From Sanchytrium tribonematis (lineage: Eukaryota): a stretch of DNA of 37,098 nt. Positions 12,641 to 36,736 of this stretch are shown in pieces. How positions within the stretch are numbered: position 1 is the first letter of the stretch; each line of letters begins with the position of its first letter. Under the pieces are notes generated by a model. The model had not been told where the DNA came from and made no database searches. It was given only the letters and a program-made list of their open reading frames with translations. The stretch spans positions 1-37,098 of the forward strand of contig JADGIG010000031.1 of assembly GCA_018985235.1 (NCBI GenBank), written 5' to 3'. The translations under genes and the position numbers were made by a program.

Positions 12641-15524
12641 TTAAGTGAGTAGTTTGAGATACTGTGGTTTGTAATTCCAGCACAGAAAATAGCTTCTAAA
12701 TTGTAAAGATTCGCGCCCTTCTTCTTCTATTATTATCGGAGCTCCCTGACGAGAACCAGTTTCCTTTTTTTTCCGCATATTCATAATATTCCTTAGATTT
12801 TCCATCCTTTGAACTGCGTATGGTGATATCTGATTTCCTTCAACTGCATTGGTGTACTGCTGCACTTGGTGTTGTATAACGGCTTCTGTTTTGTCGCTAC
12901 TACTGGATTTAGTGATCACACTTTCTGGTTTTAATGAAATTTTGTCGGCTGTCTCTGGCCTTGAAGTATCTTCTTTCAAAGACGATGCGCTCCTTCTGGT
13001 TCTTAATTCGTTTAATTTCTCTTGTGAGTAGCTAAACGCTATTAATTTTTTTTCTAAAATTTCAGAAATACTTCTGTCATCAAAATTATCTTTAAATCTT
13101 AATTTTAAGAGTTCATGGACCCCAATTCTAAATTGATGCCCAGTGCGACTTCCCATCCATAAGTGGCATGGCCTGGGAGACCCACAATCAATTAGAATTA
13201 TTTTTTCTTGGTCTAGAATTGATTGAGCAAGCCCAGTATATACGACAGTCAGTTCAATAGCTCTACAATCAACCAATCCTTTTGTCATCTCAAATACTAA
13301 AACAACAGGGAAAGGATTGGCCTGGGATTCGTTGCTAGCACCATATTCGCCTTTTCCTTTTAATGAATTCCAAAACGCATCAGTTTCTTTTTTCTCTGTT
13401 AAATAAGTAAGTGACGTTTTTCCAAGTATGACTTTTTCAATATCTACAGACGCTTTTGCTTCGTTATCAAGAAATCTAATCATATCATTTGCAGCTTCAA
13501 TGGCAAGTTTGTTTTCAGCCTTAGATGCACCACTTCCGGTCCAAATAGATGCCTGCTGACCATCTAATAGTAAATATACATATCTGCTACATAGACTTTG
13601 GGCTTCAAAATCTGTTTGAATCATTTTGACGCTTTTCATTGAAGGCTCAACAAAAAATTTAAACAACTTTTTTCGTATTTCTGGAGCATTGAAATATTTT
13701 ATATTGAATTTCAAAGACTGCTGTAGCAATATTGGCTCCTCAAAGGAGAAGACCCTTTCCATAGACGATTTGGTATGAAATTGCTGCTCTAAAAATTCTT
13801 TTAGGTCTTTTCCACTTGTATTTAAAAATTTGGACCACTTGATCGTACTACGCTGCCTTGATTGCCAATAATAAAGATGTATATTAATTTCGTCGTCGTC
13901 TTCCTCTTCCTCGTCATCATCTTTTCGGACTTTGGGTATTTGATACACTATGACAAAAACATAAGTATCATCTAAATTTAAAAATCCCTCCAAAGCCGCC
14001 TTGTATTTTACACAAGTAATATCATCTAATACCTTATAGCACTCTAGCGCAACTATGTTGATTTTACGTGGTGTAATTTGAGTATATGTCATATCTTTCA
14101 GACTCTTGTAAATTGCAGTTGAATTTTCATTATGAAGAGGTTTAAATTTAATATCTGGTTTTTTAATGTCAATTCGATCATACCAATCTGGAAATTTTAA
14201 CCGAAATAGTTCAGGTTCAAATCCCTCGAAAACTTTTCCGACAACCATCCACATTGGCCTAACTTGACTTCTCATACATGCTTTAAAACATTCCATTGCT
14301 TCTTCGATGTGGTATTTGTTGCATTTTTCGCCAATCCAAAGGTACAGCTCAACTGTGTTATCTAGGACAAAGCATTGATTTGTTTTTAGGTGTTTTTTTG
14401 TCAATGGTGGTTTTACTAGACAGTCCATCAAATCTTCTGTTTCTTCATCAATTCTAAATAAATATAAATTACATATATCCGATGTGACTTTGCGCAGCCT
14501 CGTACCAGTCTTTATCATTTAACATAATCAAGGACTGCAAACTTGCCATATTTTGCTTTGAGTGGTATACTTGCAGGCTATTTTCGACCTGCTCATCGTC
14601 TACTTCATTTAATGACTGCTTGGATAATTCCTCTGATTCGTTTTTGATGGGCAACAATTCTCGAAAGTCTCTAGGCTCAAAATCTTCTTCGATAACTTTT
14701 ATTTCTAGTTTTCCGCCTCGATTGTATTTTATAGTATTTGCAATCATAAAAGTTTTTGATTTTTCAACTAATGTCGCCTGCTCACCTTGCCATACATATA
14801 TAATTGTACCACAATCTATTATAAAAGCTCCGTCCGTTGTCAAAGAGTTCCGAAAAGGAGCCACTAAAATTCCTTGTGGATTCTTCTTTCCCACAATTTT
14901 GTATACTCGAATAAAATTATCGTCAATTCTGGGTTTTAAAGAACTTGGAACTGAATTCTCTTGATCATATTCGACAGAGAGACCATATATTTCTTCCCCG
15001 TCAAAATACTCTTCAGTTCGAAATATTTGCAAAAGTGCTCGGCAACCGACTGCCCATATAGTGGAACTAGTTTTTTTGTCAGCGGTTGCATTTGGGCCAA
15101 TCCATTTGCAAAATTTAACTTCTTCTCCTTCGGCTTTGAACAGTAGATAAGCATCGTATATGTTGAGTATAGAATAAGGGTAAGGGTTTGGAATCATATC
15201 TTCTATCCTATAAATATGTACACCTTCTTTTTTAACTTCTTCCATGTTAATATATATGCTTGTGTCAAGCATTAGTTGTTGGTGAAAGGTCAAGGGCTCA
15301 TCTTTTTCAATCACTTCTGCTGTTCTTCCTGCGGTGATGTATCTATTTTCTTGGATCACTGGAGAATTAATATTCGGCTCCGGTTTCTTTTTCAGTAACA
15401 TTTTGTCCATAACCGCGTTCTTCTTTACTTTAGGAAAATACGGCTTCTTTTTCTTGCTTCTATTTGTGTTTAAATCAAAGCTGACCTTTATTTCGTCAAT
15501 GGGTTGTAAAATTTTGTTTTTCAT
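12641..15524 (-). CDS. Flightless-I-like gelsolin-repeat protein without LRRs; two exons (15524-14473, 14453-12641), 954 aa
   Basis: WIGPNATADKKTSSTIWAVGCRALL, RVYKIVGKKN, IYVWQGEQAT and an acidic run before HLYYWQSR resemble the FLII gelsolin repeats as I recall them. Removing the 19-nt intron joins the two track ORFs in frame (SHIGYI-IDEETED). Confidence 0.85.
14454..14472 (-). other. 19-nt spliceosomal intron (phase 2)
   Basis: GTAATTTATATTTATTTAG. Removal fuses ORFs 14469..15524 and 12641..14518. Confidence 0.88.
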
Positions 15525-15859
15525 GTCGTGATGAAATGGGTAATTGTGGATGAAAAGTTATTTGTGTTGATGTAGAACAGCTTAGACGTGTATATAATAA
15601 ATAATACTTTGGATTAATGGTTGCAATGTATGAAACTATGATATTCAAGTTTTTTTATCAAATTTAAGGGGCATTCTGGAAAGTCTTAATTTTCGCGACA
15701 CCACTTTTCTGTTGTTCGATTATTTTGGGAAATTTATAAGTTTATTAAACAACAGGTTTAGCTCAACGTAGTGTATAGTGCTATGAGTCGCGAATGTTTA
15801 TATTCTTAGAATGACCAGTTGCTATTGAACCACTTCCATCTTTTAGGTCAATTGAATTG

Positions 15860-36011: not shown

Positions 36012-36183
36012 GCTGACATGAATTAAAATTAGGCTATATATTTTATTTAATTTGGATTATTGATAACTTATATCTTCTCATAAGATTTGCTCTCATCAAA
36101 TGTTTGATTTAGTAAAATTGCAAGATTTAATAAAAAACAAATTTATCTTCAGATCTGAAACACACTATTTACTTTACATTTCT

Positions 36184-36736
36184 ATGGGAGCCCTCTTTTC
36201 AAAGCTATTCGGAAGTATCAAAAAGGAATCTAGAATTTTAATATTGGGTCTTGACAATGCCGGCAAAACCACCATTTTATATCGATTGCAGTTGGGTGAA
36301 ATTGTTCAAACTGTGCCTACTATCGGCTTTAATGTTGAAACTGTAACTTATAAAAACACTACTTTTCAGGTGTGGGACTTGGGCGGACAAAGCAGTATCA
36401 GGCCATATTGGAGATGTTATTATGCCCAAACAGATGCAATCGTTTATGTAGTTGATAGTTCTGATCATGAAAGACTCAGTCTTGCACACTCTGAATTATT
36501 AGGAATGTTGGGTGAAGAAGAATTGAAGGGTGTGCTATTAATGGTTCTAGCCAATAAGCAGGATGTTCCTCAAGCAAAAAGTGTTGTAGACATAAGCAAT
36601 ACTCTAGGATTGCAAAAAGTAGTTTTAATTAATTAAGTTACAAGATAGAACTTGGCAGATTTTTAAATGCTCTGCCTTGACAGGCCAAGGTATACACGAG
36701 GCCTTTGACTGGCTTGTTGCTCAACTCAATAAATAA
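36184..36736 (+). CDS. ARL1: ARF-like GTPase Arl1; two exons (36184-36618, 36638-36736), 177 aa
   Basis: MG myristoylation start, [34 protein letters not shown]. Exon 2 gives [26 protein letters not shown]. Confidence 0.96.
36619..36637 (+). other. 19-nt spliceosomal intron (phase 0, AAG acceptor)
   Basis: GTAGTTTTAATTAATTAAG. Removal restores [14 protein letters not shown]. Confidence 0.93.

What the first reader, a model, noticed from the sequence alone, without database searches (positions are those of the whole stretch)
14454..36637. Position-locked branch point: invariant T at 12 and A at 14 (-6) in all seven introns
Seen: in an ungapped alignment all seven have GTA at 1-3, Y at 11, T at 12, A at 14, Y at 15 and WAG at 17-19. 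A at 10 occurs in 6 of 7, and positions 4-9 are free. Known: YTNAY is the U2 branch-point consensus, and Stentor's tiny introns also have a conserved A six bases from the 3' end. Inference: the lariat loop would be only 14 nt with no room for a polypyrimidine tract. The 5' splice site carries only 3 informative bases, so U1 and U2 probably cannot bind together in the standard way. The -6 geometry may be convergent with ciliates.
Basis: partly seen in the sequence, partly recalled or inferred. Interest (0 to 1): 0.78.

Follow-up and report, generated by a model that had tools for sequence, protein, structure and literature searches.

The report
19-base introns in a sanchytrid fungus
Seven genes of this fungus, likely a sanchytrid (a small group of algal parasites), are interrupted by 19-base inserts that are likely the shortest spliceosomal introns yet described in fungi, each predicted to branch at an adenosine six bases from its end.

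Summary
The alignment is real: seven 19-nt GT..AG inserts share GTA, Y-T-N-A-Y and WAG (7 matches, 0.64 expected). Removing exactly 19 nt gives the best match to homologs for Sar1 and Arl1. The gelsolin-family junction is not settled by homology. The organism is likely a sanchytrid (94% identity to Amoeboradix gromovi Sar1 and Arl1). Relatives' unspliced gene calls stop at the same two junctions; five read through and fit only 19 nt, and all three Arl1 cases force A-Y at -6/-5 while neighbouring codons differ. A. gromovi's Sar1 intron is probably 20 nt with A still at -6, so the ruler is the 3' end, not position 14. A fixed -6 branch point is known from Stentor and Yarrowia; 19-nt introns in fungi were not found in print, and the published sanchytrid annotation used intron-blind ORF calling. 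A. gromovi keeps U2AF65, U1-70K, SF3B1 and Dbr1; Slu7 and Prp18 were not found in its table. No RNA data exist here, so splicing and branching are inferred. The scan had not noted this before (only longer Rozella introns). New variant of a known kind.

The parts
14454..14472 (-). 19-nt GT..AG intron candidate, phase 2, in a gelsolin-repeat gene (12641-15524); predicted branch A at 14459. Boundaries least secure.
   Evidence: Pattern match; the two pieces match gelsolin segments 1-2 and 3 onward; but this join scored lowest of 26 frame-joining candidates and 2-3 bits below alternatives in a 13-sequence profile.
20717..20735 (+). 19-nt intron, phase 1, near the end of a protein kinase gene (17725-20914; Rim15-like, label recalled); predicted branch A at 20730
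   Evidence: Pattern match; frame continues 59 codons spliced against 21 unspliced. Pfam and PDB gave no hit for the last exon; the receiver-domain resemblance across the junction is recalled, not tested.
24995..25013 (+). 19-nt intron, phase 2, near the end of a TPR gene (22278-25143); predicted branch A at 25008
   Evidence: Pattern match; in-frame stop inside; the last exon is a further TPR repeat starting at profile position 7 at its third residue (weak, E 0.015).
27946..27964 (-). 19-nt intron, phase 1, near the end of a short-chain dehydrogenase gene (27878-28706); carries ACTAAT; predicted branch A at 27951; flanked by a 5-nt direct repeat
   Evidence: Pattern match; spliced tail 22 residues against 4 unspliced; the relative P0261 (57% identical in this region) has a 25-residue tail and no intron at this site.
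32460..32478 (-). 19-nt intron, phase 2, in an LtrA-family gene (31997-33686); predicted branch A at 32465
   Evidence: Pfam LtrA profile positions 10-209 on exon 1 (ending 2 residues before the junction) and 214-339 on exon 2 (from its second residue), i.e. contiguous with no insertion.
34965..34983 (+). 19-nt intron, phase 1, in Sar1 (34475-35075); predicted branch A at 34978
   Evidence: Best of 86 GT/GC..AG joins against a profile of 98 homologs, 352.8 bits against 290.5 unspliced; same junction in five distinct relative tails.
36619..36637 (+). 19-nt intron, phase 0, in Arl1 (36184-36736); predicted branch A at 36632
   Evidence: Best of 137 joins against a profile of 95 homologs, 300.3 bits against 252.3 unspliced; restores the 7-residue spacing seen in 87 of 95 homologs; same junction in five relative records.

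Best explanation
The seven 19-base GT..AG inserts are likely major-spliceosome (U2-type) introns of a sanchytrid fungus, predicted to branch at the invariant A six bases from the 3' end. Shown: the inserts, their shared columns, frame restoration, and the same two junctions in relatives. Inferred mechanism: U2's GUAGUA box pairs with intron positions -11 to -5 (A-10:U, Y-9:G, T-8:A, N-7:U, A-6 bulged, Y-5:G), which explains why T at -8 is invariant and why -9 and -5 tolerate C or U. The first AG after the branch A, five bases on, is the acceptor, so the branch helix itself sets the 3' splice site and no pyrimidine tract is needed. The 5' site is reduced to GTA with no G at +5. Total length is squeezed to 19-20 nt by deletion against a floor set by the 14-nt lariat loop. 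A five-base branch-to-acceptor gap would be eased by losing Slu7 and Prp18, which were not found in the A. gromovi annotation (weak evidence, about even odds).
For: 7 matches against 0.64 expected; motif-free peak at 19 nt. Exact 19-nt removal is the best join for Sar1 and Arl1, and LtrA is contiguous in Pfam. The -6 register holds A in 7 of 7 and gives the most U2 pairs of 12 registers (4.71 of 6 on average; 1 of 200,000 shuffles reach it). All ten relative records examined end at the same junctions; the five that read through the intron fit only 19 nt among the lengths tried; in all three Arl1 cases the fifth intron codon is His or Asn, forcing A-Y at -6/-5, while the third codon differs in each. 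The A. gromovi Sar1 tail ends Leu-Ile-stop, which forces Y-T at -9/-8 and A-T at -6/-5 if the stop is the acceptor's TAG (20 nt). A. gromovi's published table lists Prp8, SF3B1, U2AF65, U2AF35, SF1, U1-70K, Prp16/22, Prp17, Isy1, Yju2, Cwc25 and the debranching enzyme Dbr1 (PMC8371127 supplement 4). In yeast Prp18 and Slu7 are dispensable for short branch-to-acceptor distances and Prp18 enforces a 10-nt minimum (PMC10711555, passages). Same geometry in Stentor (PMC9505925) and Yarrowia (PMC2483917).
Against: No spliced RNA or lariat was seen. The gelsolin-family intron is not supported at residue level: in the downstream frame its own 3' end encodes a match to the domain's opening L-[YF]-R-[VI] strand, and the 19-nt join ranked last of 26 and sixth of seven in the profile test. 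The kinase and dehydrogenase junctions rest on frame extension and weak similarity only; one relative lacks the dehydrogenase intron. The spliced Sar1 spacing (11) is the minority state among homologs (7 of 98; 80 have 10). n = 7 in one window, introns 82% A+T, and other registers tie with or beat -6 in single introns (-12, -13 or -10 in four of seven). Relatives are known only as protein tails, are 89-99% identical, and are not independent. The U2 box used is the canonical one, not this organism's. Absence of Slu7, Prp18 and U1C rests on an annotation covering about half of the proteins, made from intron-blind ORFs.
Confidence: 0.8

Rival explanations
1. The inserts are real spliceosomal introns, but the branch nucleotide is not the A at -6 (for example -7, -10 or variable), and the shared columns serve protein recognition or reflect A+T richness.
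For: A at -10 in 6 of 7 and at -7 in 3 of 7; in four introns another A scores as many or more U2 pairs; chlorarachniophyte nucleomorph introns of 18-21 nt splice with no discernible branch point (PMC6009652, passages).
Against: Only -6 has A in all seven, with the flanking Y-T and Y that U2 pairing predicts; A-Y at -6/-5 is forced in three diverged Arl1 relatives; branching at -10 would leave a 10-nt loop and is not available in one intron.
Confidence: 0.1
2. The inserts are not removed from RNA: the genes are truncated, pseudogenised or misassembled, or the ribosome shifts +1 through the 19 bases (18+1).
For: 19 = 18+1; six of seven hold an in-frame stop; five lie in the last fifth of the gene, where truncation might be tolerated; for the gelsolin gene the downstream frame through the insert fits homologs slightly better than the spliced form.
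Against: A frameshift would add six residues, giving spacings of 17 (Sar1) and 13 (Arl1), seen in 0 of 98 and 0 of 95 homologs. Last exons are conserved (Pfam Arf positions 148-174 and 145-173). The same GT..AG length and phase recur in relatives whose inner bases differ. The X1 contig shows no indel (perhaps not independent).
Confidence: 0.05
3. Six inserts are introns as described, but the gelsolin-family gene is joined differently (a longer upstream GT-AG or GC-AG intron ending at 14510 or 14499), or its 19-nt intron arose from former coding sequence to rescue an upstream frameshift.
For: Joins that keep the insert as exon score higher against 149 homologs and by 2-3 bits in the subfamily profile; the downstream frame is open for 46 bases upstream of the donor.
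Against: The difference is small at about 30% identity. The insert is 89% A+T, matches the full consensus that occurs 0.64 times per window by chance, and sits exactly where the frame must change. The best homolog P0264 also resembles the upstream frame through the overlap (by eye).
Confidence: 0.25
4. The inserts are excised by a non-spliceosomal route (Ire1-type endonuclease as for fungal HAC1, or DNA-level elimination).
For: The HAC1 introns of some fungi are 19-20 nt long (recalled, no call).
Against: All seven have GT..AG ends and a branch-like motif; they sit in unrelated housekeeping genes; spliceosome and Dbr1 genes are annotated in A. gromovi; no excised DNA form appears in X1's contigs.
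Confidence: 0.02

Closest known systems
Tiny introns of the ciliate Stentor coeruleus (PMC9505925; parts 1-3 of 6 of the text read)
   Same: Near-fixed length, only GUA conserved at the 5' end, putative branch A with a 5-nt 3' tail (-6), A+U-rich, about a fifth to a quarter of genes with an intron.
   Different: Stentor introns are 15-16 nt with a 10-11-nt loop and no strong branch consensus, and are 5'-biased; here 19-20 nt, a recognisable A-Y-T-N-A-Y motif, and a 3' bias in this window.
Yarrowia lipolytica introns with fixed branch-to-AG distance (PMC2483917; passages)
   Same: A fungus with TACTAAC|AC|AG, i.e. branch A at -6 and T at -8, and no pyrimidine tract.
   Different: Yarrowia introns are long (median 204 nt in the paper's table) with strong ACTAAC and GTGAGT signals; here the whole intron is 19 nt and the signals are degenerate.
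Chlorarachniophyte nucleomorph introns, 18-21 nt (PMC6009652; passages)
   Same: Same length class, GT-AG ends.
   Different: No discernible branch point, about 3 introns per gene, in a relict endosymbiont nucleus.
Mikrocytid introns, 16-17 nt (PMC10245619; section 7 read)
   Same: Parasite, narrow length range, conserved sequence, few hundred introns.
   Different: Rhizarian; spliceosome cut to 17-19 proteins with no U1 found, whereas A. gromovi keeps U1 proteins and many others.
Short introns of microsporidia and Rozella (PMC6349667, PMC2483917; passages) and of myxobolids and Dicyema (PMC13644364; parts 1-2 of 3 read)
   Same: Opisthokont parasites with introns under about 30 nt; myxozoans also reduce the donor to GTa and keep U2AF.
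   Different: Longer (Encephalitozoon median 32 nt, Rozella about 30 nt, myxobolid medians 22-27 nt). Microsporidia have strong GTAAGT and CTAAYTT signals; in myxozoans the putative branch A moves away from the AG as length grows, unlike the 3' anchor inferred here.

Membership tests
U2-type (major) spliceosomal intron | GT..AG ends | tested here: met
   7 of 7.
U2-type (major) spliceosomal intron | Removal restores the coding frame of a conserved protein | tested here: met
   Exact for Sar1 and Arl1 and LtrA; weak for TPR, kinase and dehydrogenase; inconclusive for the gelsolin gene.
U2-type (major) spliceosomal intron | Branch sequence able to pair with the U2 GUAGUA box around a bulged A | tested here: met
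   4-5 of 6 pairs in each intron at -6, 33 of 42 overall; canonical U2 box taken from PMC9505925, not from this organism.
U2-type (major) spliceosomal intron | Removed from mature RNA through a lariat | not testable with these tools
   No RNA holder listed.
U2-type (major) spliceosomal intron | Major spliceosome (U1, U2, U4/U6, U5 snRNAs and proteins) encoded in the genome | tested here: inconclusive
   No whole genome held; no snRNA in the window. Proteins are annotated in the relative A. gromovi; snRNAs not examined.
U2-type (major) spliceosomal intron | Extended 5' site (G at +5) and polypyrimidine tract, typical but not obligatory | tested here: not met
   G at +5 in 0 of 7; two bases between the branch motif and the AG. 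Stentor, Yarrowia and myxozoans also lack one or both.
U12-type (minor) intron | Strong RTATCCTT donor and TCCTTAAC branch motif (recalled) | tested here: not met
   Neither motif appears in any of the seven sequences.
Ultra-short, length-constrained intron systems (heterotrich ciliates, nucleomorphs, mikrocytids) | Genome-wide narrow length range near the lower limit | tested here: inconclusive
   7 of 7 in the window and 5 of 5 read-through relatives are 19 nt, one is probably 20 nt; no genome-wide set could be drawn.
Sanchytriomycota (lineage of the host genome) | Close protein identity and synteny with a named sanchytrid | tested here: met
   Sar1 and Arl1 94% identical to A. gromovi proteins P0123 and P0131, which are neighbours on one contig as in the window; named non-sanchytrid homologs reach 78% and about 71%. 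No tree was built and the species was not determined.

The most novel reading that the evidence does not exclude
Sanchytrids run a remodelled spliceosome for 19-20-nt introns, the shortest nuclear introns of any fungus or animal: the second-step ruler Slu7/Prp18 (and perhaps U1C) is gone, U1 and U2 cannot sit on the intron together so the branch helix alone defines both cuts, and splicing leans on 3'-end processing, which would explain why six of seven introns lie in the last 30% of their genes, the reverse of other intron-poor genomes.
Probability: 0.2. Interest if true: 0.85.

Novelty: new variant of a known kind. Interest (0 to 1): 0.62.

Why it matters
It would add an independent origin of near-minimal introns, the first below about 25 nt that I could find for fungi, in a lineage whose relatives include the best-studied spliceosomes. 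Because A. gromovi keeps U1 proteins, U2AF65, SF1 and SF3B1, the system offers a direct test of how a nearly full spliceosome handles a 14-nt lariat loop and a 5-nt branch-to-acceptor gap, and of whether loss of Slu7/Prp18 goes with such gaps. The repeat of the -6 spacing in Stentor, Yarrowia and here suggests a structural floor. In practice, sanchytrid proteomes made by intron-blind ORF calling hold truncated or split proteins (seen for Sar1, Arl1 and others), which bears on gene-loss claims for this phylum.

Tried and rejected
No whole genome was held, so no genome-wide logo and no snRNA search. Sequencing runs: no RNA holder listed; the one DNA run may be the source and is not independent. 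Scans for related DNA gave no close relative: 12 distant Sar1 loci in metagenome contigs (51-78%), one archaeal GTPase in genome contigs, none in viral contigs; the pattern has 0 matches in those 13 loci. The representative search with the gelsolin first exon returned only distant homologs, which could not fix that junction. Pfam, PDB and the ESM Atlas gave nothing usable for the kinase's last exon. Exact look-ups for the other intron genes found no relatives. Rfam and ARAGORN found only tRNA-Gly in the window. Earlier findings: none for this genome or sequence. Rejected: 'locked to position 14' (a probable 20-nt case keeps -6); loss of U2AF65 (annotated in A. gromovi); a +1 frameshift (spacing absent from homologs); the 16-nt alternative in Arl1 and the 10-, 34- and 37-nt alternatives in Sar1 (lower scores); three further 19-nt frame-rescue candidates (35814, 25153, 11803), set aside because COQ5 is complete unspliced and the others end a gene or lie antisense, without a homolog test.
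Full report
What the window is. A compact eukaryotic contig, 30-41% G+C per kilobase, with roughly 25 closely packed genes, most of them single long frames, and one tRNA-Gly. No whole genome is held. Sar1 and Arl1 are each 94% identical to proteins named Amoeboradix gromovi (P0123, P0131), which are consecutive calls on one contig, as Sar1 and Arl1 are near neighbours here; named homologs from other fungi reach about 78% and 71%. 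A. gromovi is a sanchytrid, a phylum of algal parasites with 10-11 Mb, 35% G+C genomes (PMC8371127, passages). I therefore take the organism to be a sanchytrid; I built no tree and did not determine the species.

The observation. All seven 19-nt sequences and all column counts are as stated. The pattern occurs 7 times against 0.64 expected, and at no other length from 14 to 40 nt more than 3 times. Because the pattern was drawn from the sequences, I also used a filter with no internal motif: GT..AG stretches whose removal prolongs a long frame number 10 at 19 nt and 0-3 at other lengths from 13 to 33 nt (6 at 34, 8 at 37), and include all seven. Within-intron shuffles give three invariant inner columns in 19 of 200,000 trials, and P = 0.0024 for the five best-supported introns alone.

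Are they introns? For Sar1, the 19-nt join is the best of 86 GT/GC..AG joins against a profile of 98 homologs (352.8 bits; next 345.4; unspliced 290.5), and for Arl1 the best of 137 against 95 homologs (300.3; next 295.3; unspliced 252.3). The Arl1 join restores the spacing of 87 of 95 homologs; the Sar1 join gives the spacing of 7 of 98 (80 are one residue shorter). LtrA's two exons are contiguous on the Pfam profile, and the TPR gene's last exon is a weakly scoring further repeat. The kinase and dehydrogenase cases rest on frame extension; a relative of the dehydrogenase has a tail of similar length and no intron there. The gelsolin-family gene is one gene in two frames, but its junction is uncertain: the insert's 3' end, read in the downstream frame, matches the opening strand of the third domain, and the 19-nt join ranked last of 26 by summed BLAST score and 2-3 bits below five alternatives in a 13-sequence profile. 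Signals and composition favour the 19-nt intron; homology mildly disfavours it.

Evidence from outside the window. Public gene calls for relatives were made without splicing, so they run into the intron and their tails can be back-translated. Five Sar1 records with distinct tails (P0121, P0122, P0124, P0123, P0002; P0003 repeats P0124's tail) and five Arl1 records (P0130, P0131, P0133, P0251, P0252) all leave the homologous sequence at the window's junction. Five read through the whole intron, and for each only 19 nt is compatible with GT, AG and the conserved next exon among the lengths tried (12-24 nt for Arl1, 12-29 or 12-32 nt for Sar1). In the three Arl1 cases the fifth intron codon is His, Asn, His, which forces A at 14 and Y at 15, while the third codon is Lys, Thr, Ala (Leu in the window). 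In Sar1, position 3 is A in all five, position 11 is Y in the four that reach it, and position 12 is forced to T in P0121 and compatible in the rest. The A. gromovi Sar1 tail ends Tyr-Leu-Ile-stop; a 19-nt intron would give Arg where the stop is, whereas a 20-nt intron ending in TAG gives Y-T-N-A-T-H-T-A-G, with A at 15 but still at -6 (inferred, since the stop could be another codon). These records are 89-99% identical in protein and are not independent samples, but their free positions have diverged.

How it most likely works. With the canonical U2 box (PMC9505925), the register that bulges the A at -6 gives 4.71 of 6 pairs on average, the best of 12 registers, and 33 of 42 is reached by 1 of 200,000 shuffles. 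This accounts for each conserved column: A-10, Y-9, T-8, A-6 and Y-5 are a degenerate ACUAAC. The acceptor is the first AG after the branch A (printed for five introns; visible in all seven). The donor keeps GTA and never has G at +5; canonical U1 could form 4-6 of 8 pairs. Two bases separate +6 from the start of the branch helix, so U1 and U2 would be crowded; whether they exclude each other is untested. In the published A. gromovi annotation table (PMC8371127 supplement 4, searched by term; the file is cut within its second sheet; two supplements were too large to read and one was a scan) I found U2AF65, U2AF35, SF1/BBP, U1-70K, U1A/U2B'', SF3B1, Prp8, Prp16/Prp22, Prp17, Isy1, Yju2, Cwc25 and Dbr1, and did not find Slu7, Prp18 (by name and by recalled KEGG and KOG identifiers) or U1C. 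In S. cerevisiae the shortest natural branch-to-acceptor distance is 10 nt, Prp18 enforces it, and Slu7 and Prp18 are dispensable at short distances (PMC10711555, passages; PMC10158995, passages); here the distance in that convention is 5. The fit is suggestive, but only about half of the proteins are annotated, so absence is weak.

Comparison with what is known. A branch A at -6 with GUA-only donors is described for Stentor's 15-16-nt introns, whose snRNAs are conventional (PMC9505925). The same spacing is described in a fungus, Y. lipolytica, with long introns (PMC2483917). Introns of 18-21 nt without a visible branch point fill chlorarachniophyte nucleomorphs (PMC6009652), 16-17-nt introns occur in mikrocytids (PMC10245619), and the shortest animal medians are 22 nt (PMC13644364). 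Among fungi and relatives the papers I saw give about 25-32 nt for Encephalitozoon and about 30 nt for Rozella; a 2026 review names only Microsporidia and Saccharomycotina as cases of intron contraction in the passages shown (PMC12861292). Searches for sanchytrid introns gave two papers whose only hit for 'intron' is in the reference list, five listings on other subjects (listing only), none for 'shortest introns' with fungi and microsporidia, and no listed paper with 'Sanchytriomycota' among 23 on very short introns. The genome paper predicted ORFs with TransDecoder on genomic contigs and never mentions splicing in its text. The library lacks most subscription papers, so 'unreported' is limited to these searches.

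Unexplained. Six of seven introns lie in the last 30% of their coding sequence (mean position 0.80; P = 0.0024 under a uniform spread), whereas Stentor and microsporidian introns are 5'-biased. The whole-window pattern search found no match near gene starts, but introns that depart from the consensus would be missed, and the test is post hoc on seven cases.

Verdict. The feature is real and probably lineage-wide. Splicing, branching and the spliceosome changes are inferred. Interest 0.62; new variant of a known kind. Labels such as Rim15 and flightless, the U12 and HAC1 features, and the KEGG/KOG identifiers are recalled and come from no call.

Noticed in passing
window, all seven introns: Strong 3' bias: relative positions 0.37, 0.94, 0.96, 0.92, 0.72, 0.85, 0.82, opposite to the 5' bias reported for other intron-poor genomes; ribosomal protein genes S7 and S15/S19 in the window have no intron.
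   Followed up: partly
window 27941-27969 (-): The dehydrogenase intron is the least A+T-rich, has a near-canonical ACTAAT, is flanked by a 5-nt direct repeat (exon end and intron end), and is absent from relative P0261: possibly a recent gain by repair with microhomology.
   Followed up: partly
window 14454-14518 (-): Both frames of the gelsolin-family gene are open across about 46 bases upstream of the donor, and the downstream frame through the intron resembles the homologs' domain start; possible intron born from coding sequence or an alternative upstream intron.
   Followed up: partly
PMC8371127 supplement 4, A. gromovi sheet: SF1/BBP is annotated on two consecutive ORFs of one contig, as expected if an unannotated short intron splits it.
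   Followed up: no
protein P0003: Begins with an Arl1 N-terminus and continues as Sar1: likely an assembly chimera across the shared GTPase motif of the two neighbouring genes in a relative.
   Followed up: no
window 31997-33686 (-): An LtrA-family gene (Pfam describes it as bacterial low-temperature requirement A) carries one of the introns; origin not examined.
   Followed up: no
window 127-272: Run X1 holds two near-identical contigs here differing at 7 positions: a duplicated segment or two alleles in the first, low-complexity ORF.
   Followed up: no
window 35941-36011 (-): Intronless tRNA-Gly(GCC) between COQ5 and Arl1.
   Followed up: no
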